A stretch of DNA of 64,000 nucleotides, taken from positions 60,329 to 124,328 of the IMG/VR virus record IMGVR_UViG_2974628344_000001. The stretch is one strand, 5' to 3'. Shown one piece after another: positions 11,574 to 28,924 of this stretch. The notes beneath the pieces are model-generated. The model did no database searches, was not told the origin of the DNA, and saw nothing but the letters and a program-made list of their open reading frames with translations. Origin of the DNA: Streptomyces virus Wollford (lineage: Duplodnaviria > Heunggongvirae > Uroviricota > Caudoviricetes). The translations under genes were made by a program, and so were the position numbers. Every line of letters starts with the position of its first letter. Positions within the stretch are counted from its first letter, which is position 1.

Positions 11574-12191
11574 ATGTCAACTACAGCAATGTTGCTCATC
11601 GTTGATCGTTCTGGTAGCATGGCTAGCATCCAGATGGAAGCAGAGCAAGCGCTCAATGACTTCCTGTCCAGTCAGAAGGAACTACCTGGACGATGTGGTA
11701 TTCATGTGGTACAGTTCGATGGACAGGTTGAAGATCTGTTTGGACCGCTGCCTCTGGCTGATGCACCTGAGATCAAGATTGTACCTCGCGGAATGACTGC
11801 ACTACTTGACGCAATTGGCAAGTCTGTGACAGAATTCAGACAGACAATGGACCATTTGCCGGTGGATAAGCGACTTGTCGTTATTCTCACCGATGGTCTT
11901 GAGAATGTTTCTCAGGAGTGGGAAGTAAATGCAGTCAATAAGCTGATCAATGAGTCAAGGGAACTTGGTTACGAGTTCATCTTCCTTGCTGCAAATCAGG
12001 ATGCGATTGCAACCGGTGCTCAGATGGGCATTCCAACAGCTTCAAGTCTAACCTTTGCGGCAAGTCCTGCTGGTGTACGTGGTCTTGGTAAGACAATGGA
12101 CGCGTATGTCACCAATTATCGCGCAGGCAAGGCTGCTCAGTTTACTGATCAAGATCGGCAGACAGCGAGCGGCTTGACAGACGAAGACTGA
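11574..12191 (+). CDS. von Willebrand factor A (vWA) domain protein
   Basis: LLIVDRSGSM MIDAS motif, TDGLEN, 205 aa. Confidence 0.7.
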   Translation: MSTTAMLLIVDRSGSMASIQMEAEQALNDFLSSQKELPGRCGIHVVQFDGQVEDLFGPLPLADAPEIKIVPRGMTALLDAIGKSVTEFRQTMDHLPVDKRLVVILTDGLENVSQEWEVNAVNKLINESRELGYEFIFLAANQDAIATGAQMGIPTASSLTFAASPAGVRGLGKTMDAYVTNYRAGKAAQFTDQDRQTASGLTDED

Positions 12192-12297
12192 TCTGTTAAA
12201 GTAGTAAATGTGGGTCGAAGGGCTCGGTCGGTTATCTTACATTGGAATCAGATCGCCATTAAATTGGCACCCGACTCCCAACACTTATCCACATTAT

Positions 12298-12371
12298 GCG
12301 GATGTAGTTTAATGGTAAAACCCCTGCCTTCCAAGCAGACGACGGGAGTTCGATTCTCCTCATCCGCTCCA
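12298..12371 (+). tRNA. tRNA-Gly (UCC), CCA encoded
   Basis: cloverleaf by hand: acceptor gcggatg/catccgc, loop cuUCCaa, T-arm gggagTTCGATTctcct, 3' cca. Confidence 0.8.
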
Positions 12372-12500
12372 TAGACCCGGATTCGCCTCTGTCATCTTTT
12401 GTGATATGCTACCGGCGAGATGTAGTCTAGAATGCATCTCGGTATCTGACCCGGATACGTTAAGAGAGCGCCAGGCTCTACAACTGGCAGGGTAACACAT

Positions 12501-12573
12501 TCCCCATTGGTGTAACTGGCAACACAGCAGACTCTGACTCTGTCGTTCCTAGTTCGAATCTAGGGTGGGGAGC
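12501..12573 (+). tRNA. tRNA-Gln (CUG)
   Basis: acceptor tccccat/gtgggga, anticodon loop cuCUGac, T-arm cctagTTCGAATctagg. Confidence 0.6.
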
Positions 12574-12804
12574 TGGTCCGACTTTACGATATCGGCGGAA
12601 ATAATCGAATCGGAACGCACGCAATAACCTAGGTAAAGGTGCGGAATGAGGAGAGGAAATATGCGGGAAGCGATGGGTAAAACCTCCTCGGACCGACAAT
12701 TTGCGGCCTAGTTGCAGGCCAGAATAGAACAATGGATTTCCCTGGGTTAGGCGCTTACGCCGTTCATTGTTTGAATTCAAAGGGGTCACGCCCAAGCAAC
12801 TTAT

Positions 12805-12876
12805 GCGTCCTTAGTGTAATGGTTTGCACACGAGCTTCCAAACCTCTTAGAGTGGGTTCGATTCCTACAGGACGTG
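12805..12876 (+). tRNA. tRNA-Trp (CCA)-like, weak anticodon stem
   Basis: acceptor gcgtcct/aggacgt, loop uuCCAaa, T-arm gtgggTTCGATTcctac; only 3 bp of anticodon stem pair. Confidence 0.45.
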
Positions 12877-12883
12877 CTTTGAA

Positions 12884-12916
12884 TAAAACCCCGGTGTCTA
12901 ATAGCACCGGGGTTTA
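12884..12916 (+). terminator. Rho-independent terminator
   Basis: aaaaccccggtg tctaata gcaccggggttt. Confidence 0.65.
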
Positions 12917-12930
12917 GCATTAGGAGACAA

Positions 12931-13377
12931 ATGGGATACTACACTAGATATCAATTAGAAATCGTAAGAGACAGTGAAAGAGCCAACGATCTCATTGACG
13001 ATGCTGAGAATGTCACAATTCCTGGAAGCTACGATCTGAATCTATCTAGATTGATCAATGGCAATTACGATACCATGAAGTGGTATGACTGGGAAAAGGA
13101 CATGGCATCTCTATCAAGAGATTGGCCAAACGTCCTCTTTGCTCTAAGTGGAGAGGGCGAAGAGCCTGGTGATCTCTGGAAGGCTTGGGTAAGAAACGGT
13201 AAGGTCATTAAGGTTCAAGGTAGAATCGTCTACGATGTACCCGACCTTGACAAGGTGCTTCCAGTCAACGATACTGTGGAAAAGGAATACAAGGCACAGA
13301 AGAAGGCAGAGCTTCAAGCCACCATTATGGATCTTGAGAACAGGTTGGCGAAGCTAAAGGGACTATCTAAGGATTGA
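12931..13377 (+). CDS. hypothetical protein (C-terminal coiled coil)
   Basis: 148-aa ORF after terminator. Confidence 0.45.
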   Translation: MGYYTRYQLEIVRDSERANDLIDDAENVTIPGSYDLNLSRLINGNYDTMKWYDWEKDMASLSRDWPNVLFALSGEGEEPGDLWKAWVRNGKVIKVQGRIVYDVPDLDKVLPVNDTVEKEYKAQKKAELQATIMDLENRLAKLKGLSKD

Positions 13378-13378
13378 A

Positions 13379-13537
13379 ATGGCACTAGTTGGAACTGGCA
13401 ATACTTGTTGGTTTCAGCGATGTGGCAATGCTCCAATTCACCGAATTAGATATCATAATAAAACTGTGATGGTTTGCAATAAGCACAAGAATCTCGATGG
13501 ATTAGGATGTTTGCCAAGTCGCAGACGACCAAAGTGA
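13379..13537 (+). CDS. small Cys-rich zinc-ribbon protein
   Basis: 52-aa ORF not in track (below 60 aa): MALVGTGNTCWFQRCGNAPIHRIRYHNKTVMVCNKHKN... Confidence 0.3.
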   Translation: MALVGTGNTCWFQRCGNAPIHRIRYHNKTVMVCNKHKNLDGLGCLPSRRRPK

Positions 13538-13609
13538 TTGAGAAATTTGCTTGATATCCGAATATCCTTTACTCTAGTTATGACCTTTTAAGGTCAATCT
13601 TTAACTGGG

Positions 13610-14605
13610 GTGAAGGATATGGTCGATAGACCACCCACAGAACAAATGCCTTCCAGAAAGAGAAGAGAAGGCATTGACCTAGAGGCCATTGTTGCAGCCG
13701 TTAATGCACAAGTTATTGCAGAACGAGATGTTATTTCTATTCCTGGCCCTAAAGGTGAAAAGGGTGATAAAGGTGAAGACGGTCCGCAAGGAGAATCAGG
13801 AAAGTCTGCCTGGAAAGAATGGATTGACGCAGGCAATTCTGGAGATGCCAGAGAGTTTCTGAATGCTCTCACTGGACCAATGGGTCCTCAAGGAATCGAA
13901 GGTCCGCAAGGACCACGCGGTGAACCTGGAAGAGATGGAACATCTGTAAAGGGTGAAACAGGCCCAAAGGGTGAAAGAGGAGATCCAGGACCAGTTGGAA
14001 TGACTGGACCTCAAGGTGTCCAGGGCCCTCCAGGCGAATCAATCATTGGTCCAAAGGGAGATCAGGGGCCGCAAGGAATTCAAGGCGTGCCTGGTCCTGT
14101 AGGCCCAGAAGGATCACAGGGTATTCAAGGACCAATTGGACCTCCGGGACCCAAAGGTGACCAAGGAATTCAGGGCCTAAAGGGCGATAAGGGAGATTCC
14201 GGCATTCAGGGAATTCCTGGCCCACAAGGCTTGAAGGGTGATCAAGGTATAGCTGGCCCAAGTGGATCAAAGGGTGACAAGGGTGACCCTGCTACTGTAT
14301 ACTCAGATGGACAGGCAAGAACGAATGTCAAGATCATCACCGGAAAGGTGTTGACAGATGCCACCGGAAAGTTTACAGTAGATCTATCAGGTGCTGGACT
14401 TACAACGATCTATTCAGCTACGGCGACTGCTGCTGCAACGGATGCGACAGCGGCCGGTGTTGGAATGGTCAGCATTCAGACCTTGACAACTACCTCTCTA
14501 GTAGGTACAGTAGTAAGAGCATCACAACTAAGTGTTCTTGGTATCCTATCTGTAACACTTGTTGGATCTGGAAGAAATGTCTACTACACCGTAATAGGAA
14601 GTTGA
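13610..14605 (+). CDS. collagen-like (Gly-X-Y repeat) structural protein, probable tail fibre
   Basis: about 70 uninterrupted G-X-Y triplets ([19 protein letters not shown]...) followed by a non-collagen Thr/Ala-rich C-terminal domain. Confidence 0.85.
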
Positions 14606-14675
14606 CACGATCTGCTGGGTCTGCTAAGATTAAGTACAACGCAGCAAGCAAACATCACACATTGGTTGCTGCTAT

Positions 14676-14747
14676 CAGGCACGGGGAAGATGGTAATCCG
14701 TTGGCTTTGGAAGCCTAAGACACTCGGTTCGATTCCGAGGTGCCTGA
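14676..14747 (+). tRNA. tRNA-Pro (UGG)
   Basis: acceptor caggcac/gtgcctg, loop uuUGGaa, T-arm ctcggTTCGATTccgag. Confidence 0.65.
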
Positions 14748-14771
14748 CCGAATGCAGTTCCTAGGGGCTGC

Positions 14772-14850
14772 ACGTCCTGCGGGCGCGATGATTGGAATGG
14801 TAAGGTGACGTCCTGCCATCAAGGTTCAACTCCTTGCGCGTCGCGAACTG
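14772..14850 (+). tRNA. tRNA-like element (T-arm caaggTTCAACTccttg); acceptor pairing not resolved by eye
   Basis: canonical T-loop at 14823-14833 inside ORF-free stretch between two tRNAs. Confidence 0.3.
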
Positions 14851-14876
14851 GGTGTGATACGATAACTCACAACAAC

Positions 14877-14947
14877 TGGTACTAGTGTATGGGGAAGCAC
14901 GAGACATTTGGGATGTTTTAGGCGGAGTTCGAGTCTCCGGTACCGGA
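14877..14947 (+). tRNA. tRNA-Pro (UGG) second copy (G37)
   Basis: acceptor ctggtac/gtaccgg, anticodon stem agaca/tgttt, loop uuUGGga, T-arm cggagTTCGAGTctccg. Confidence 0.55.
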
Positions 14948-14949
14948 CA

Positions 14950-15015
14950 ATTTGGGTCGAATGGGATACGGTTATCACTCAATGGATAATAGGTTCGATT
15001 CCTATCGCTGGGTTC
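14950..15015 (+). tRNA. tRNA-like element (T-arm ataggTTCGATTcctat), 5' half not resolved
   Basis: T-loop at 14993-15003; no matching acceptor found by eye. Confidence 0.25.
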
Positions 15016-15110
15016 GCCTGGTAGATACAAGTCATCTGAGATTGTGTGTGGTAGGATGACATTAAGGACTACACACTCTCCGTTCCCGCCTTATACCTAA
15101 AGGAATTACC

Positions 15111-15632
15111 ATGACAGTACTTCTGAGAACGATTCATGGCTCTCATTTGTATGGCCTAGCTCATGCAGATTCCGACAAAGACATTTACGAAGTAATTGCT
15201 ACCAGTCGGACTAAGCGTAAGCGAAACATTAAGCAAACCATTTCTGATGGAGTTGACAAGACAGTAGTCGATATGTCAACATTTATGAGAATGGTTGATG
15301 AATGCGTACCTCAAGCACTTGAAGCGCTATGGACGCCGGTAGCTGAGATCGACAAGATCCACGAATTCCGGACACAATATCGAGTGAATCGCGCCAAGAT
15401 GAAAGATGTGTACGTACGAACTGCCCTTAACTTTGCTAAGGGTGATGGGGTAAAGCAGAAGAAGCACGCAGTGCGATTGCTGCTGAATCTTGGTCACACT
15501 TTGGAGTTTGGAAAGTTCAATCCTCGATTGGATGCAATGGATAAGATCATTATCAATGCATCTGTCGGAGACGCGGGAAAGTATGATGCCGTGTTCGACG
15601 CTCTAATTGATGAGGTCGGCCGGTGGATATGA
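15111..15632 (+). CDS. small Pol-beta-superfamily nucleotidyltransferase (putative)
   Basis: N-terminal hGSHLYGLAHADSDKDIY = GS-x9-13-DxD nucleotidyltransferase signature; 173 aa. Confidence 0.45.
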   Translation: MTVLLRTIHGSHLYGLAHADSDKDIYEVIATSRTKRKRNIKQTISDGVDKTVVDMSTFMRMVDECVPQALEALWTPVAEIDKIHEFRTQYRVNRAKMKDVYVRTALNFAKGDGVKQKKHAVRLLLNLGHTLEFGKFNPRLDAMDKIIINASVGDAGKYDAVFDALIDEVGRWI

Positions 15633-19764: not shown

Positions 19765-19849
19765 AAATTATACTGGGAAAAGATAAAAGAAGAAGATAAG
19801 TGAAATCGATTTGAAAATCGATACAAGATAATATATTAGGATAATATAT

Positions 19850-20128
19850 ATGAAACTGTTTGAGCTGCACAGAGATGTAGATGCATCAGGAGTCAGCGGT
19901 ACTGGCATCGTTGCTCAAGGTGTACAGTTTGACAACGGACAGTGTGCTATGTCATGGTTGTCTCAGTGGACCTCAGTCGCCTTGTATCCAGATATTGAAA
20001 CGCTGGAAGCGATTCATGGACACAACGGCAACACTCGTGTAGTATGGCTAGAAGAAGAACTGGACTTCCACACTCCCCTTGATCCAGATGTTCGGGCAAA
20101 GCTTGTGGAAAAATACTCTAAGGACTGA
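19850..20128 (+). CDS. hypothetical protein
   Basis: 92-aa ORF after AT-rich leader. Confidence 0.4.
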   Translation: MKLFELHRDVDASGVSGTGIVAQGVQFDNGQCAMSWLSQWTSVALYPDIETLEAIHGHNGNTRVVWLEEELDFHTPLDPDVRAKLVEKYSKD

Positions 20129-20294
20129 CATGTTCAATGGTTTTGGTGACTTCCTTGACACGATGAACAAGAGTATGGCACAGTGGGAAGCAGAGCAAGA
20201 GAAGATCCGAGAAGCATTTGCGGCCGGTGTAGAGGTTGAGTTCGAAGATGGTGAAGTACGAGAGTACGGACCGTTTGACAAGCCCTCTCCTTGA
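20129..20294 (+). CDS. hypothetical acidic protein
   Basis: internal Met of track ORF 20079..20294 (MFNGFGDFLDTMNKSMAQWEAEQEK...). Confidence 0.3.
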
Positions 20295-20425
20295 TGCTAA
20301 TGTAGTTTTAGGTGGTCAGCCATAAGGCGGTAACGTTGAATTGGCCCGCTGCCTATGAATGGTCGGCAAGCAGGTAAATGAGGAACACAGGAGCTTGAGC
20401 AACAACCCCTCTACCATTCAATCTT

Positions 20426-20502
20426 GGCCTATGGGACTGCTAGGTTGTGGTCACCGCCCTGTCAAGGCGGATATCAGGCGGGTTCGATTCCCGTATAGGT
20501 CG
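20426..20502 (+). tRNA. tRNA-Asp (GUC)
   Basis: acceptor ggcctat/ataggtc, anticodon stem ccgcc/ggcgg, loop cuGUCaa, T-arm gcgggTTCGATTcccgt. Confidence 0.65.
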
Positions 20503-20522
20503 CTCTTGTAATCAATCTAAGG

Positions 20523-20747
20523 ATGACTATGGCTAAGACATTCGAAGTGAATGGCACTTACAAGGTTGGCAAGGACGTTCGTCCGTTTTCCAATCTGTAT
20601 ATGGCGGATTCTGCTTCTGCTGCTGAGAAGTTTGCTAAGAAGGAGTTCGAGAAGGAATGCCATCACTATGGCGTGCCTCGTGGTACAAAGCTAAATGTCA
20701 CAAATTCTAGGCCGATCTCAGAAGCAGAGATCAAGCGTAGGAAGTAA
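20523..20747 (+). CDS. hypothetical protein
   Basis: 74-aa ORF between tRNAs. Confidence 0.4.
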   Translation: MTMAKTFEVNGTYKVGKDVRPFSNLYMADSASAAEKFAKKEFEKECHHYGVPRGTKLNVTNSRPISEAEIKRRK

Positions 20748-20767
20748 TAAATGCGCTTCGGCGCTAT

Positions 20768-20839
20768 CCCGGCGTGGTGAACTGGTTATCATGCTTGTCT
20801 GTCGAACAAGAGTAGAGGGTTCAATTCCCTTCGTCGGGG
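20768..20839 (+). tRNA. tRNA-Asp (GUC)-like second copy (G37)
   Basis: acceptor cccggcg/cgtcggg, D gtga/tcat, stem cttgt/acaag, loop cuGUCga, T-arm gagggTTCAATTccctt. Confidence 0.5.
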
Positions 20840-21060
20840 CTTTGAGGGTCGAATGATTATCGGTTATCTGTCTATGAAACAGACTGAAACACGGTTCGAA
20901 TCCGTGGATTGCTTTGGCGCTAGGTTTACGGTCGATATCAACAACTTATCCTCATACAACTTAATTCGGGCCGAAGAAGTTCGATTATCTTACACTGCAA
21001 ATATAAGATCGATCTTCACCAACTTGCCCGATCTTTTCATTTCTACGGAAGGATCAAAGG
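20840..21060 (+). ncRNA. candidate structured ncRNA (Y-RNA/YrlA-like?) upstream of Ro60 gene
   Basis: 220 nt with no convincing ORF; contains tRNA-like T-arm cacggTTCGAATccgtg (20888-20905) without full cloverleaf; track ORF 20853..21083 is low-complexity. Confidence 0.3.
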
Positions 21061-21396
21061 TTGGACACCGAAGCACGCATTGAACGCTTCAAGCAGCTAT
21101 GGCAGTCTGGCGATAGCTATTGGGCAGAAGACATTGTTGACGAGATCAATGAGTCTCTTGCTGATGATGAATTCAAGCTAAGGCATGTAGATCAAATTGA
21201 GGAAGATACTTCCCGGTGGATGGATCACATGCTTGACATTGTTGAGATTGACGAAGGTGTCTTTGTTGGAGTACGCTGGGACAGCGGTAAGACAGAGATG
21301 CAAGAGAATATGTACGAAGACGACAATGTCTATCTACTTGAACGTGTAGAACGAGTTGTTACCACTGTTGAGTGGAATGACGTAAAGACTGTCTAA
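21061..21396 (+). CDS. hypothetical acidic protein
   Basis: 111 aa, Asp/Glu-rich, directly upstream of Ro60 gene. Confidence 0.5.
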   Translation: MDTEARIERFKQLWQSGDSYWAEDIVDEINESLADDEFKLRHVDQIEEDTSRWMDHMLDIVEIDEGVFVGVRWDSGKTEMQENMYEDDNVYLLERVERVVTTVEWNDVKTV

Positions 21397-21431
21397 AATC
21401 AAATGCCCTACGAGGGCCGGAAAGGAAAGAA

Positions 21432-23060
21432 ATGTCCAACGCACTAACTAATGCCGCAAAGGCAACCAACAAGACTTCTCAGTCAATGAAGGCCAAGGAT
21501 GGACAGGTCAAGAACAACGCTGGTGGATTCGTCTTCCAGGTTTCTGATCAGTCACGCCTGGAGCGCTTCTTGATTCTAGGAACTGATGGAGGAACGTATT
21601 ACGTCTCTGAGGTTAACCATACTCAGTCAAACGTGAACTTCCTCAATGAGTTCATTGCTCGTGATGAGGCTAATGTGCTGAACACAATCGTTGATGTATC
21701 TGTCAATGGTCGTGCGTACAAGCAGTCTCCAGCCCTATTTGCTCTGGCTTCTGTCATTGTCAACGGCAAGGACAAGCAGGCAGTTAAGGCTGTATTCAAC
21801 AAGGTCGTAAGGACTGCTACTCATCTCTACGAGGTGGTTAACTATCTTAACGAGCTTGGTGGATGGGGTCGTGCAAAGCGTGAGATCGTAGCTGGTTGGT
21901 TCGATAAGGAAGCTGATAAGCTTGCTTATCAGGCAGTCAAGTATCGTTCCCGTACCTTTGGTGGAAACACCTGGACGCTACGAGACGTAATGCGAAAGGC
22001 TCACCCACAGAACGTCGACACGTCTGTTGCTGATTTCGTTCTAGGCAAGGAGCGCGATGCTACTGATAACCTTCGGGTTATTGAGGGCTTCAAGCTTATG
22101 CAGAAGGCGGAGTCTGTAGAGAGTGTTCATGCAGTTCTGCGGGATTACGAGATGCTTTCTTGGGAGACAATTCCAACGCAGTTCCTCACGGATGCTAGTG
22201 TTTGGAAGCGACTCTTCGCAAATGGTCAGCTTCGTGGTCAGGCTGCTGTTCGAAACATTACTCGCCTTGCGCGCATTGGTGCTTTCAAGGACATGCAGTT
22301 TGCTGCAAGCTTCGCCAGTCAGCTAACGAATGAGGAAATGATTCGTCAGTCTCGACTGCACCCAATTAACTTCCTCAACGCTGCTGTTGTTTATGCAGAA
22401 GGTCAGGTGGATCGAAAGAACATCTGGGGCGAACGTGTAAAGAACTGGGAGACTGAGGCCGTTATTGTCGATGCAATCGATGAGGCGTTCCACAAGTCAT
22501 TCAAGACCATTGAGCCAGCCGGTAAGAGGACGATGCTAGCCATCGACTGTTCCGGATCAATGAGTACACAGGCTATGGGTCTCGACCTAAGCTGTGCACA
22601 AGTTGCTGGTGCTATGGCGATGACCATTGCACGTACTGAGCCAGCTCACATCCTTCGTGGCTTTTCAAGCGCGGGATACAACTGGCGTGATAGCGGTATG
22701 GCCGAACTAAAGATTACTGGTCGCAGCTCTCTTGCTCAGGCAATGAGTGCAATGCGTGCGGTAAACTGGGGCGGTACAGACTGTTCACTGCCAATGACGT
22801 GGGCTCTTGAGAATGGTGTAGAAGTTGACACCTTCGTTGTTCTAACGGATAACGAAACATGGGCTGGAAAGATTCACCCATTCCAGGCTCTCAAGAACTA
22901 TCGTAAGAGCACAGGTATTGATGCACGACTTGCTGTTCTAGGAGTCGCTTCAACTCCATTCACTATTGCTGACCCAAGTGATAGTGGAATGATGGACTTC
23001 GTTGGCTTTGATAGCAACGCTCCACGTGTTCTAGCAGATTTTTCCGCCGGTCGAATCTGA
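21432..23060 (+). CDS. rsr: Ro60/Rsr orthologue (TROVE domain + C-terminal vWA)
   Basis: N-terminal NNAGGFVFQVSDQSRLERFLILGTDGGTYY TROVE signature; C-terminal LAIDCSGSM MIDAS (vWA); 542 aa. Confidence 0.85.
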   Translation: MSNALTNAAKATNKTSQSMKAKDGQVKNNAGGFVFQVSDQSRLERFLILGTDGGTYYVSEVNHTQSNVNFLNEFIARDEANVLNTIVDVSVNGRAYKQSPALFALASVIVNGKDKQAVKAVFNKVVRTATHLYEVVNYLNELGGWGRAKREIVAGWFDKEADKLAYQAVKYRSRTFGGNTWTLRDVMRKAHPQNVDTSVADFVLGKERDATDNLRVIEGFKLMQKAESVESVHAVLRDYEMLSWETIPTQFLTDASVWKRLFANGQLRGQAAVRNITRLARIGAFKDMQFAASFASQLTNEEMIRQSRLHPINFLNAAVVYAEGQVDRKNIWGERVKNWETEAVIVDAIDEAFHKSFKTIEPAGKRTMLAIDCSGSMSTQAMGLDLSCAQVAGAMAMTIARTEPAHILRGFSSAGYNWRDSGMAELKITGRSSLAQAMSAMRAVNWGGTDCSLPMTWALENGVEVDTFVVLTDNETWAGKIHPFQALKNYRKSTGIDARLAVLGVASTPFTIADPSDSGMMDFVGFDSNAPRVLADFSAGRI

Positions 23061-23061
23061 G

Positions 23062-23090
23062 CAAAGCCCCTCTTCGGAGGGGTTTTTTGC
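23062..23090 (+). terminator. Rho-independent terminator
   Basis: gcaaagcccctc ttcg gaggggtttttt. Confidence 0.75.
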
Positions 23091-23102
23091 TATACTTGAC
23101 AG

Positions 23103-23243
23103 ATGATTAGTAAAGAAGAACGAAAGCAATTGAAGCTAGCAAGATCAAAGGCAGAGCTAGTAAGAACTGTGACAAGCATCTTTCAGATGATTATTGCATC
23201 TGCCACTCTCATCATTCTGGTGTACGTAAACTTCATGCGTTGA
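23103..23243 (+). CDS. small membrane peptide
   Basis: 46-aa ORF not in track; hydrophobic C-terminal helix IIASATLIILVYV. Confidence 0.25.
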   Translation: MISKEERKQLKLARSKAELVRTVTSIFQMIIASATLIILVYVNFMR

Positions 23244-23268
23244 CAAGCTGAGCGAGATGCGATAGCTT
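23240..23268 (+). promoter_or_regulatory. promoter TTGACA-N17-TAGCTT
   Basis: member of recurrent promoter family. Confidence 0.35.
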
Positions 23269-23414
23269 AGAGACATGAACAGCAACGAGCCAGGTGTAAC
23301 GCTCTCAAGCCTATTGCGAATGATCTTCAAGAGATCTGTTAAAGTTCGCCCGGCGGTGATAGAGTCAACCTGTGGCCATTGTAAGACTAAATACAATATT
23401 AACGTAGGACATAT

Positions 23415-23681
23415 GTGTCCCTACATCAAAGACCTATACTCCAAATTGGGGGAGCGATGACAGAGCACAAGTACGAAACTCGAACCTACCGCTTTGAAGG
23501 AACACATAAGCTCGCAGACGAAGTTGCACATCTTGCAATTACAAATGACTGTCGAGTAAGCACACGTACTGCTTCTGGAATGCTTCGAAAGAAGAAGCAT
23601 CTCTTTGTAGTGTTTGGTGCCGTGGCTCGTCTTGAGCGTTTCGAAACGCAGATGGAAAAGGCGAAGGGACGGATTCAGTGA
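23415..23681 (+). CDS. hypothetical protein
   Basis: 88-aa ORF. Confidence 0.35.
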   Translation: MSLHQRPILQIGGAMTEHKYETRTYRFEGTHKLADEVAHLAITNDCRVSTRTASGMLRKKKHLFVVFGAVARLERFETQMEKAKGRIQ

Positions 23682-24341: not shown

Positions 24342-24567
24342 CATGACTGGTCGTCCGCTTAATGTGGGCGATCGTGTCATTTTTGCCAGGCCACAAGGTG
24401 GCAACTCAAAGGGTGGCATGCTAGACTCTGGAACGATAACCAAGATCAGCAAGGACTCTGGGGTGATCTCCATCCGTGTTGACAACGGTCCCAAGTCTAG
24501 GTATGGTAGAAGGACAGTTGCCACTCCGTGGCACGAAAGAAAGTTCTATAAGCTGGAGGACCAATGA
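24325..24567 (+). CDS. KOW-like small protein (paralogue family)
   Basis: VGDRVIFARPQGGNSKGGMLDSGTITKI motif. Confidence 0.4.
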   Translation: MQTFTDMTGRPLNVGDRVIFARPQGGNSKGGMLDSGTITKISKDSGVISIRVDNGPKSRYGRRTVATPWHERKFYKLEDQ

Positions 24568-28818: not shown

Positions 28819-28821
28819 CTG

Positions 28822-28920
28822 GTGAATGTAAATGGAGGTAGTATGGTTCGATTCCATACGGCCGGTGGCCCGGTATAAAAAGTTAGCTACTGCCCAAGGT
28901 TCGATTCCTTGACATTCACT
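28822..28920 (+). other. aberrant 99-nt tRNA-like element with two T-arm hairpins
   Basis: 8-bp closing stem gtgaatgt/acattcac enclosing tatggTTCGATTccata, ggccggtggcccgg hairpin and caaggTTCGATTccttg. Confidence 0.3.
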
Positions 28921-28924
28921 TAAT

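What the first reader, a model, noticed from the sequence alone, without database searches (positions are those of the whole stretch)
20840..23060. Ro60/Rsr orthologue with an untranslated tRNA-like segment upstream: candidate Y-RNA/YrlA locus
The ORF 21432..23060 has a TROVE N-terminus and a C-terminal vWA MIDAS, the architecture of Ro60/Rsr. In bacteria and in some mycobacteriophages, Rsr is partnered with Y-RNA-like ncRNAs (YrlA) that carry a tRNA-like T-arm module.

The 220 nt at 20840-21060 are 370 nt upstream and contain a perfect T-arm (cacggTTCGAATccgtg, 20888-20905) without a complete cloverleaf. Their only ORF (20853..21083) is low-complexity and overlaps the preceding tRNA.
Basis: partly seen in the sequence, partly recalled or inferred. 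Interest (0 to 1): 0.75.

Follow-up and report, generated by a model that had tools for sequence, protein, structure and literature searches.

The report
Phage Ro60 gene with Y RNAs
A Streptomyces phage carries a Ro60-type RNA-binding protein gene, and just upstream lie two unannotated small RNAs of the kind that partner Ro60 in bacteria and animals; this is a known type of system, not recorded in this phage group's database entries or in the papers I could search.

Summary
The window is Streptomyces phage Wofford. ORF 21432-23060 is a genuine Ro60/Rsr orthologue (TROVE plus Ro60-vWA domains; D. radiodurans Rsr E 4e-99).

The unannotated 220-nt gap after tRNA-Asp holds two Y-type RNAs, not one:
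- RNA-1 (20843-20954) is YrlA-like. It has the 5' GNCGAAN0-1G motif, UUAU, a covarying T-arm at 20890-20906 and a GG-loop hairpin. It has no canonical D-arm.
- RNA-2 (20966-21031 plus a U-tract) is a plain stem-bulge-stem Y RNA. Its Ro-binding helix is nearly that of animal Y RNAs.

A covariance model of RNA-2-type phage RNAs finds 109 phage and 94 bacterial copies. All are on the Ro strand, and nearly all phage and all bacterial copies lie upstream of Ro/rsr, with strong covariation. ORF 20853-21083 is frameshifted or stopped in relatives. Rfam's YrlA and Y_RNA models miss both RNAs, and YrlA is also below threshold on a mycobacteriophage control.

Two more copies abut tRNAs at 12208-12294 and 14951-15101.

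Phage Ro/Y RNA pairs are already published, so this is a new member of a known kind. Binding and function are inferred.

One new lead: a hairpin on the Ro ribosome-binding site (21404-21420) mimics the Y-RNA Ro-binding helix in phages and Nocardia. This suggests Ro may regulate its own translation.

The parts
20768..20840 (+). tRNA-Asp(GTC). Its 3' end lies 2-3 nt before RNA-1, and no CCA is encoded.
   Evidence: ARAGORN; Rfam tRNA 55.8 bits; GenBank gene 123.
20843..20954 (+). RNA-1, a YrlA-like Y RNA. Lower (Ro-binding) helix: 20843-20849 pairs with 20948-20954, with bulged C20850 and G20851/A20852 opposite UU20946-20947. Upper helix: 20854-20863 pairs with 20932-20940. UUAUC: 20864-20868. 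V hairpin: 20870-20884.
   Evidence: Motifs read from the sequence. Hand-registered alignment of 15 phages: 93% of cells paired against 28-49% when the partners are slid; 7 pairs have compensatory changes. BLAST conservation in 37 records, none annotated.
20890..20906 (+). T-arm of RNA-1 (CACGG-UUCGAAU-CCGUG).
   Evidence: Four of the five stem pairs covary across phages.
20909..20922 (+). Short hairpin after the T-arm (UUGC-UUUGGC-GCUA). Its loop GG is invariant in all 15 phages. It is proposed to stand in for the D-loop; no canonical D-arm is present.
   Evidence: Invariant GG columns. An indel (C versus AU) falls in the loop. The pairing is weak in Karimacviruses (helix 5).
20966..21037 (+). 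RNA-2, a simple stem-bulge-stem Y RNA. Lower helix: UCGGGC 20966-20971 pairs with GCCCGA 21026-21031, with bulged C20972 and GA opposite UU. Then the upper helix and loop, followed by UCUUUU up to 21037.
   Evidence: Rfam RF01656 (nematode stem-bulge RNA family) 37.1 bits against a gathering score of 38, E 3.4e-5. MFE equals the Y fold, z -2.8. RNAalifold: 12 of 15 pairs covary. Model R1 and the pair counts.
21061..21396 (+). gp124, a conserved 111-aa protein of unknown function lying between the Y RNAs and Ro.
   Evidence: GenBank CDS; phrog_13073, unknown function, E 4.8e-46; syntenic in relatives.
21404..21431 (+). Ro leader element. Hairpin GCCCU(21405-21409)/AGGGC(21413-21417), then C21418, then G21419 opposite U21404. 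This reproduces the Y-RNA bulged helix. It runs straight into the Shine-Dalgarno (GGA 21424-21426) and the ATG at 21432.
21432..23060 (+). gp125, a Ro60/Rsr orthologue (TROVE ring plus vWA domain with MIDAS).
   Evidence: Pfam; PDB 2NVO E 4e-99, human RO60 9NEN E 4.4e-83, Xenopus 1YVP E 7.2e-82; phrog_850; annotated 'Ro-like RNA binding protein'.
23069..23090 (+). Intrinsic-terminator-like hairpin plus T-run, directly after the Ro stop codon.
   Evidence: Terminator scan: CCTCTTCGGAGGGG followed by TTTTTTGC.
12208..12294 (+). RNA-3, a third (simple) Y RNA. It lies 4 nt before tRNA-Gly and just downstream of a by-eye TTGACA-N17-TAAAGT (not tested with the promoter scan).
   Evidence: Model R1 41.3 bits, E 2.3e-7, and this RNA was not in the seed. 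MFE equals the Y fold. Conserved in 86 phage records. Stems kept in 3 phages.
14951..15101 (+). RNA-4, a fourth Y-like RNA with a T-arm (14988-15004) and an extra hairpin domain. It lies 3 nt after tRNA-Pro and before the nucleotidyltransferase gene.
   Evidence: Motif scan. RNAalifold on 6 phages gives the lower and upper helices, the T-arm and 3 covarying pairs. Conserved and unannotated in 83 records.

Best explanation
Proposed arrangement. The locus is a phage-encoded Ro60/Y-RNA ribonucleoprotein module. gp125 is a Ro60 ring protein. The unannotated gap upstream encodes two of its RNA partners. These are probably transcribed together with tRNA-Asp and released by the tRNA-processing enzymes: RNase Z or 3' trimming after the tRNA would set the 5' end of RNA-1.

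Proposed mechanism. Each RNA closes its 5' and 3' ends into a helix with a single bulged C (GGGY-C-GA opposite UU-RCCC). This is the site that Ro60 grips in animals and in Deinococcus. RNA-2 is a bare stem-bulge-stem Y RNA and ends in a U-tract that could also act as a partial terminator. RNA-1 carries an effector module built like a tRNA elbow (a T-arm plus a hairpin with a GG loop), as in YrlA and Yrn1. By analogy with Deinococcus, Salmonella and Thermus phage phiLo, the RNAs would gate the Ro ring and tether it to a host enzyme. The most likely enzyme is the exoribonuclease PNPase. This would direct degradation or quality control of structured RNAs during infection by a phage that itself carries 44 tRNA genes, a tmRNA, a nucleotidyltransferase and an RNA ligase.

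Shown here: the protein family; the existence, conservation, covariation and non-coding nature of the RNAs; and their family relationship to RNAs next to bacterial rsr genes.

Inferred: expression, processing, Ro binding, the effector and the biological role.
For: - Protein.
- RNA-2: Rfam stem-bulge RNA family at 37.1 bits against a gathering score of 38. RNAalifold finds 12 of 15 covarying pairs in 16 diverse phage RNAs.
- Model R1 finds 109 hits in 91 phage sources. All are on the Ro strand and nearly all lie upstream of Ro.
- R1 also finds 94 hits in 80 bacterial rsr loci. All are on the + strand and lie just upstream of rsr.
- On the R1 alignment, 91.6% of cells are paired against 34-43% when slid, and 414 double-change cells are seen against 125 in shuffles.
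- RNA-1: it has the YrlA motifs of PMC4201824. In 15 phages 93% of cells are paired against 28-49% when slid, and the T-arm covaries at 4 of 5 pairs. Wofford differs from LukeCage by a U-A to C-G double change in the upper helix. BLAST links it to Naboo RNA-1, which R1 scores at 37.9 bits.
- Non-coding: the ORF is frameshifted or stopped in six relatives and is never annotated.
- Motif enrichment: 4 observed against 0.003 expected.
- tRNA abutment: 32 of 109 phage Y RNAs lie within 15 nt of a same-strand tRNA.
- Precedent: 22 phages with YrlA-like RNAs (PMC4201824). Thermus phage phiLo Yrl1 and Yrl2 bind phiRo60 and host PNPase (PMC12135203).
Against: - There are no expression, end-mapping or binding data for this phage.
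- Rfam YrlA (RF02553) and Y_RNA give no hit at E<10.
- My own model R1 does not align RNA-1 full length.
- For RNA-1 alone, the comparative fold (-20.5 to -23.8 kcal/mol) is less stable than the MFE (-27.2). The T-arm has only 0.06 ensemble probability, and the z-score is -0.7.
- RNA-1 lacks a canonical D-arm, and the hairpin after the T-arm pairs weakly in Karimacviruses.
- The RNA-1 alignment was registered by hand, and the R1 alignment is fitted to the model. Both lean towards the proposed structure.
- The PNPase link is pure analogy.
Confidence: 0.82

Rival explanations
1. The segment is debris from the tRNA array. RNA-1 would be a decayed tRNA (a T-arm plus an anticodon-like hairpin with loop AUGAAAC) and RNA-2 merely a terminator hairpin. 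Neither would have any relation to Ro.
For: The window has 44 tRNA genes and at least eight further orphan T-arm motifs between genes. The V hairpin has a 7-nt loop with U33-GAA-A37-like spacing. RNA-2 ends in UCUUUU. RNA-1's own thermodynamics are unremarkable.
Against: There is no acceptor stem. Instead the ends form the bulged Ro-type helix with the GNCGAA motif. That helix covaries across genera and is shared with RNAs next to rsr in bacteria without tRNA arrays. The element keeps its place upstream of Ro in three phage genera while the flanking genes change. RNA-2's internal helices covary, which a terminator does not need.
Confidence: 0.05
2. The structures act mainly in cis. They would be a leader, processing or attenuation signal that controls the gp124-Ro message (RNA-2 as an attenuator, with Ro possibly binding it to regulate read-through), not stable trans-acting RNAs.
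For: RNA-2's GC-rich closing helix plus U-tract ends 24 nt before the gp124 start. Ro is followed by its own strong terminator, so the unit reads tRNA-RNA-1-RNA-2-gp124-Ro. A Ro-helix mimic sits on the Ro ribosome-binding site, so cis regulation by Ro is plausible at this locus.
Against: The same RNA types occur far from Ro, embedded in tRNA clusters (RNA-3 and RNA-4). They occur in arrays of up to six in other phages. In M. smegmatis and Thermus phage the equivalent RNAs are stable and Ro-bound (PMC4201824, PMC12135203). Samistiviruses have RNA-1 without a U-tract. The cis and trans roles are not mutually exclusive.
Confidence: 0.1
3. The region encodes the small protein of ORF 20853..21083 (76 aa).
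For: The ORF is open in Wofford and starts with ATG.
Against: The frame shifts after about 30 codons in LukeCage and Birchlyn. It is interrupted by stops in StarPlatinum, Yaboi, Tomas and Naboo. There is no Pfam hit. It is never annotated in 37 records. Substitutions follow base-pairing, not codons.
Confidence: 0.01

Closest known systems
YrlA (Y RNA-like A) of Salmonella Typhimurium, Mycobacterium smegmatis and mycobacteriophages such as ET08 (Chen et al. 2014, PMC4201824; Rfam RF02553)
   Same: It is encoded on the Ro strand, within 4 kb and upstream of Ro. It has the 5' GNCGAAN0-1G motif, a YUAY after the 5' strand, a V hairpin and a T stem-loop with the tRNA T-loop sequence. The 5' and 3' ends pair. 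A second, simpler Y RNA lies beside it.
   Different: RNA-1 has no canonical D-arm and no separate acceptor-like (AS) hairpin; one short GG-loop hairpin stands in their place. It scores nothing with RF02553. It directly abuts a tRNA gene. Full YrlAs with T, AS and D arms do exist in the sister subfamily Loccivirinae (Belfort, TunaTartare).
Deinococcus radiodurans Yrn1
   Same: It is a Y RNA with a T-arm-like stem-loop but no full D-arm. It binds Rsr through the conserved helix and tethers PNPase (as described in PMC4201824).
   Different: No detectable sequence relationship was tested here. Yrn1 has an anticodon-like arm with a 6-nt loop. Its function has been shown experimentally, whereas nothing is known for RNA-1.
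YrlB of Salmonella and M. smegmatis, and Yrl1/Yrl2 of Thermus phage phiLo (PMC12135203)
   Same: Like RNA-2 and RNA-3, these are short stem-bulge-stem RNAs with the CGAA motif. They lie upstream of the Ro gene, with two per locus. In phiLo they bind the phage Ro60 and host PNPase.
   Different: The phage lineage and host differ. RNA-2 carries a U-tract, and RNA-3 lies 9 kb away at the head of a tRNA cluster.
Animal Y RNAs and nematode stem-bulge RNAs (Rfam RF00019, RF01656)
   Same: The bulged-C helix is almost the same: GGGCCGA/UUGCCC against GGUCCGA/UUGACC (the animal sequences are from my own knowledge). A GUUAUC-like motif follows the upper 5' strand, the 3' strand reads CACCAACUUG, and there is a terminal U-tract. 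RF01656 scores RNA-2 at 37.1 bits against a gathering score of 38. It scores a Nocardia Y RNA at 38.9 bits, above its gathering score.
   Different: There is no hit to RF00019. The loop differs. A Pol III transcription context does not apply. The resemblance may be shared ancestry of the Ro site or convergence on one protein surface.

Membership tests
Ro60/Rsr (TROVE) protein family | TROVE HEAT-repeat ring domain followed by a Ro60-type vWA domain | tested here: met
   Pfam TROVE 4.4e-35 and vWA_Ro60 1.5e-59, both above their cut-offs. Full-length match to Rsr 2NVO (4e-99), human RO60 and Xenopus Ro.
Ro60/Rsr (TROVE) protein family | MIDAS motif (DxSxS...T...D) in the vWA domain | tested here: met
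   D372, S374, S376, T449 and D473 are invariant in eight phage orthologues.
Y RNA (Ro-binding module, any lineage) | 5' and 3' ends pair into a conserved helix with a bulged C (GGNCCGA-type 5' strand) | tested here: met
   For RNA-1, RNA-2, RNA-3 and RNA-4 this can be read from the sequence. Covariation supports it.
Y RNA (Ro-binding module, any lineage) | Physically bound by the Ro60 orthologue | not testable with these tools
   This needs RIP or EMSA with gp125.
YrlA | Encoded within 4 kb of Ro on the same strand | tested here: met
   RNA-1 ends 478 nt upstream of the Ro ATG, on the same strand.
YrlA | GNCGAAN0-1G motif near the 5' end | tested here: met
   GTCGAATG at 20848-20855.
YrlA | Conserved T stem-loop resembling the tRNA T-arm | tested here: met
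   CACGG-UUCGAAU-CCGUG at 20890-20906. Four of the five pairs covary.
YrlA | Conserved D stem-loop, with an AS hairpin between T and D | tested here: not met
   Only 25 nt lie between the T-arm and the 3' strand. They hold one short GG-loop hairpin and no D-arm sequence. Loccivirinae relatives do have T, AS and D arms.
YrlA | Score at or above the Rfam RF02553 gathering threshold (69 bits) | tested here: not met
   No hit at E<10. The control is weak too: Catera 36 bits and Boopy 52 bits, and none in 16 rsr loci, most of them actinobacterial.
Nematode stem-bulge RNA / animal Y RNA (Rfam RF01656, RF00019) | Score at or above the gathering threshold | tested here: not met
   RF01656 scores 37.1 against 38 for RNA-2, just below threshold. 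RF00019 gives no hit.
tRNA | Complete cloverleaf with acceptor stem and anticodon arm | tested here: not met
   ARAGORN and Rfam tRNA give no call in 20841-21060.

The most novel reading that the evidence does not exclude
The Ro mRNA carries, directly on its ribosome-binding site (21404-21431), a circularly permuted copy of the Y-RNA Ro-binding helix. It reads AU-GCCCn, loop, nGGGC, bulge-like C, then G opposite the U. It runs straight into CGRA-AGGA and the ATG.

Free Ro would bind this mimic and block its own translation, and Y RNAs would compete for Ro and relieve the block. That would be autogenous control by molecular mimicry, as for ribosomal proteins.

The element recurs at the Ro/rsr start codon in several phage lineages and in Nocardia, with compensatory stem changes. 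I found no report of it in the searchable literature.
Probability: 0.4. Interest if true: 0.75.

Novelty: new member of a known kind. Interest (0 to 1): 0.5.

Why it matters
Ro60 and its Y RNAs are studied as an RNA quality-control machine and as a lupus/Sjogren autoantigen. What phages use them for is unknown.

This locus shows that the large Streptomyces BE-type phages (over 80 sequenced genomes) carry three or four unannotated Y RNAs each. These are wired into their tRNA operons. They include a minimal "T-arm plus GG-loop" version of the tRNA-like module and a Y RNA whose Ro-binding helix is almost the animal one.

That gives a tractable, non-pathogenic host-phage pair in which three things could be tested:
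- which part of the tRNA mimic matters;
- which host enzyme is recruited;
- whether Ro controls its own synthesis through an mRNA mimic of its RNA partner.

It also shows that current Rfam models miss most actinobacterial and phage Y RNAs, so genome annotation under-reports them.

Tried and rejected
- Rfam at gathering and at E<10 over 19800-23600 and 12100-15200 gave no YrlA or Y_RNA hit. I kept this as a limitation, not a refutation, because the YrlA model also fails on the positive controls.
- Model R1 did not align RNA-1 full length, even with filters off on the 137-nt stretch. I could not explain why, since it does align the homologous Tomas, Naboo and Samistivirus RNAs.
- Single-sequence folding of the whole gap pairs RNA-1's 5' strand with RNA-2's 3' strand. 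I rejected this because each RNA closes on itself in all relatives, and Samistiviruses have RNA-1 alone.
- RNAalifold on the plain MAFFT alignment of RNA-1 paired CGA with UCG locally instead of forming the upper helix. This traced to a 1-nt misregister between genera. I corrected it by hand with N-padding.
- A broader seed for a T-arm model misaligned at the 3' end, so I did not build a second model.
- RNAalifold on 26 unselected Ro leaders gave no consensus. The hairpin is short and MAFFT splits its inner pairs, so I used motif-conditioned counts with controls instead.
- The supplements of Chen et al. 2014 (their alignment and phage table) are not held. The Annual Review on bacterial Ro60 is not held.
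- I considered whether the leader hairpin is a minus-strand terminator (flagged). This is unlikely: all annotated neighbouring genes (gp98-gp203) are on the + strand, and the Nocardia versions lack the T-run.
Full report
**Identity of the window.**
- The region 20200-23100 is 100% identical to Streptomyces phage Wofford (MH576968, Karimacvirus, 133 kb; window coordinate = record coordinate - 60328).
- GenBank annotates tRNA-Asp (20768-20840), gp124 (21061-21396) and gp125 "Ro-like RNA binding protein" (21432-23060). Nothing is annotated in 20841-21060.
- The surrounding 35 kb is a run of + strand genes. It has dozens of tRNA genes, a tmRNA, a nucleotidyltransferase and an RNA ligase.

**The protein.**
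- gp125 matches Pfam TROVE and vWA_Ro60 far above their cut-offs.
- It aligns end to end with D. radiodurans Rsr (2NVO, 4e-99), human RO60 and Xenopus Ro.
- The MIDAS residues are invariant among eight phage orthologues.
- Ro homologues occur in 358 phage records: 212 Mycobacterium, 115 Streptomyces, and others.

**The gap holds two RNAs.** I extracted the equivalent gap from ten Streptomyces phages of five genera. A modular RNA recurs in all of them:
- a 5' strand NNGGGUCGAA(A/U)G...UCGGUUAUC;
- a variable hairpin;
- a T-arm;
- a hairpin with a GG loop;
- a 3' strand CCGA...CACCAAyAUAUCCNN that pairs back to the 5' strand.

The genera differ in copy number and order:
- Karimac- and Tomasviruses add a second, shorter RNA.
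- Samistiviruses have only the first.
- Loccivirinae have the short one first, then a full version with T, acceptor-like and D arms.

**RNA-1 (20843-20954).**
- It has the published YrlA hallmarks (PMC4201824). These are GNCGAAN0-1G (GTCGAATG), YUAY (UUAU), a V hairpin and a T stem-loop (20890-20906).
- After I corrected a 1-nt misregister in the MAFFT alignment, the proposed structure is paired in 93% of cells in 15 phages. The figure is 28-49% when the partners are slid.
- Seven pairs carry compensatory changes, four of them in the T-arm. The Wofford and LukeCage upper helices differ by a U-A to C-G double change.
- The structure was partly derived from these sequences and the alignment was registered by hand. 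These numbers therefore lean in its favour.
- Thermodynamics alone does not support RNA-1. The comparative fold is 3-7 kcal/mol above the MFE, and the T-arm has 6% ensemble probability.
- There is no canonical D-arm. The 25 nt after the T-arm hold one short hairpin whose loop GG is invariant. I read this as a reduced tRNA-elbow mimic, comparable to Deinococcus Yrn1. That reading is an inference.

**RNA-2 (20966-21031, U-tract to 21037).**
- It folds by itself into stem-bulge-stem (z -2.8).
- Its closing helix is UCGGGC-C-GA over UU-GCCCGA. This is the animal GGUCCGA/UUGACC helix with one compensated pair.
- Rfam's nematode stem-bulge RNA family, which my own knowledge places as Y-RNA homologues, scores it 37.1 bits against a gathering score of 38.
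- Sixteen such RNAs from diverse phage contigs give an RNAalifold consensus in which 12 of 15 pairs covary.
- I built covariance model R1 from these sixteen.
- R1 finds 109 matches in 91 phage sources. All are on the Ro strand and nearly all lie upstream of Ro. They include mycobacteriophage Catera, Rhodococcus phage Trina and Gordonia phage Boopy.
- R1 also finds 94 matches in 80 bacterial rsr loci (Nocardia, Actinomyces, Cellulomonas, Nocardioides). All are on the + strand and lie just upstream of rsr.
- On the phage alignment, 91.6% of cells pair, against 65% in shuffles and 34-43% when slid. There are 414 double-change cells against 125 in shuffles.
- RNA-2 therefore belongs to one family with the Y RNAs next to bacterial Ro genes.

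**Not a protein.** ORF 20853-21083 changes frame in LukeCage and Birchlyn. It is stopped in StarPlatinum, Yaboi, Tomas and Naboo.

**Curated models.**
- Rfam YrlA and Y_RNA give nothing here at E<10.
- YrlA reaches only 36 bits on Catera and 52 bits on Boopy, against a gathering score of 69.
- At gathering threshold it reaches nothing in 16 rsr loci, most of them actinobacterial.
- The negative result is therefore uninformative for this clade.

**More copies.**
- The motif GGGYCGAA-N8-16-TTATC occurs four times in the window, all on the + strand, against 0.003 expected.
- The two extra sites are RNA-3 and RNA-4.
- RNA-3 (12208-12294) scores 41 bits with R1 and was not in the seed. It lies 4 nt before tRNA-Gly and behind a by-eye TTGACA-17-TAAAGT that I did not test with the promoter scan.
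- RNA-4 (14951-15101) has a T-arm and an extra domain. It lies 3 nt after tRNA-Pro.
- Both are conserved and unannotated in more than 80 phage records.
- Other phage contigs carry up to six copies upstream of Ro.
- Of the 109 phage hits, 32 lie within 15 nt of a same-strand tRNA. This fits the idea that RNase P and RNase Z set the RNA ends, which is an inference.

**Comparison with the literature.**
- Chen et al. 2014 reported YrlA-like RNAs in 254 bacteria and 22 phages.
- A 2025 paper showed that Thermus phage phiLo Ro60 binds two upstream Y-like RNAs and assembles with host PNPase.
- A 2026 genome note on BE2 phages lists the Ro-like protein but no Y RNA.
- I found no report for Streptomyces phages.
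- The finding is thus a new, unannotated member of a known kind. Its distinctive points are a reduced tRNA-like module and multiple copies that abut tRNAs.

**A new lead inside the coordinates.**
- The 28 nt before the Ro ATG read aAUGCCCUacgAGGGC-C-GGAAAGGAAAGAA.
- This is a 5-bp hairpin whose 3' arm plus the next bases spell the Y-RNA 5' motif. Its 5' arm, with the preceding U, spells the Y-RNA 3' motif.
- The result is the bulged-C helix closed by a loop, opening onto the Shine-Dalgarno.
- I conditioned only on CGRA plus a Shine-Dalgarno plus a start codon near the Ro start. Under that condition, 34 of 71 distinct sites have a hairpin of 5 bp or more ending at the C. At control sites in the same loci the figure is 29 of 356.
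- A stricter scan finds the element at the Ro start in 38 loci, including 11 Nocardia rsr genes. It finds 54 hits in the other 986 kb.
- The stems differ compensatorily: GCCCU/AGGGC, GCCCG/CGGGC, GCCCC/GGGGC, UCCCA/UGGGA, GCUCGA/UCGAGC and GUCCGA/UCGGAC.
- In 26 unselected leaders, the U·G pair across the bulge position holds in 18 of 24.
- RNAalifold gave no consensus on that alignment, and formal covariation is modest.
- In the window, only the Ro leader shows the element.
- I propose that Ro represses its own translation through this mimic. I found no report of such control, but the searchable library is incomplete.

**Verdict.**
- The mechanism (a Ro-Y RNA particle, probably tethering a host exoribonuclease) is inferred from characterised relatives.

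Noticed in passing
window 21404-21431: A hairpin on the Ro ribosome-binding site reproduces the Y-RNA bulged helix (AU-GCCCU/AGGGC-C-G) and runs into the Shine-Dalgarno and the ATG. It recurs at Ro/rsr start codons in several phage lineages and in Nocardia, with compensatory stem changes. It may be an operator through which Ro regulates its own translation.
   Followed up: partly
window 12208-12294: RNA-3 is an unannotated simple Y RNA 9 kb from Ro. It lies 4 nt before tRNA-Gly and just after a sigma-70-like TTGACA-N17-TAAAGT seen by eye. It is conserved in 86 Streptomyces phage records.
   Followed up: partly
window 14951-15101: RNA-4 is an unannotated Y-like RNA with a T-arm (14988-15004) and an extra long hairpin. 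It lies 3 nt after tRNA-Pro and directly before the nucleotidyltransferase gene (15111-15632). It is conserved in 83 records.
   Followed up: partly
window 28820-28924: An unannotated 105-nt cloverleaf-like element between tRNA-Gly and tRNA-Arg. It has a 9-bp acceptor-like stem and two T-arm hairpins (both GGUUCGAUUCC), one of them in the D-arm position. MFE z is -2.3. No tRNA finder calls it.
   Followed up: partly
window 27476, 28654, 28694, 34178, 42634, 54885: Further orphan T-loop motifs (GGTTCGAWTCC or close variants, most with a stem) sit in unannotated intergenic gaps among the tRNA genes. They lack the Y-RNA 5' motif. Their nature is unknown.
   Followed up: no
L006 (phage EGole) 336-778: An HNH endonuclease gene is inserted between tRNA-Asp and the Y RNA. 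Its annotated CDS (336-686) overlaps the first 17 nt of the Y RNA (670-778).
   Followed up: no
L013 (Rhodococcus phage Trina) 1131-1339: RefSeq annotates a 209-nt 'tRNA-OTHER' pseudogene right upstream of Ro. The region contains a Y-like RNA with T-, acceptor-like and D-type hairpins, so it is probably a mis-called YrlA.
   Followed up: no
L108 (Nocardia flavorosea) 1732-1837: Rfam's nematode stem-bulge RNA family RF01656 scores a bacterial Y RNA next to rsr at 38.9 bits, above its own gathering threshold of 38. RF02553 YrlA finds nothing in 16 rsr loci, most of them actinobacterial.
   Followed up: partly
L097 (contig binned as an 'uncultured cyanobacterium' MAG): It carries a Ro gene 58% identical to Wofford's, at least 17 tRNA genes within 5.6 kb and R1-type Y RNAs. 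It is probably a phage contig that was mis-binned.
   Followed up: no
window 14876-14948 and 20426-20503: Two annotated tRNAs are weak. tRNA-Pro(TGG) 14876-14948 is called by ARAGORN but gets no Rfam tRNA hit even at E<5. The first tRNA-Asp scores only 35 bits. A 131-nt unannotated stretch (20295-20425) precedes the latter.
   Followed up: no
window 24517-24545: A second hairpin followed by CGAAAG (UGCCAC-UCC-GUGGCA-CGAAAGAAAG) lies inside gp130, about 30 nt before the gp131 start. It loosely resembles the Ro leader element and may be chance.
   Followed up: no
window 21061-21396: gp124 (111 aa, phrog_13073, unknown function) keeps its place between the Y RNAs and Ro in Karimac-, Tomas- and Samistiviruses. 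It may be a functional partner of Ro.
   Followed up: no
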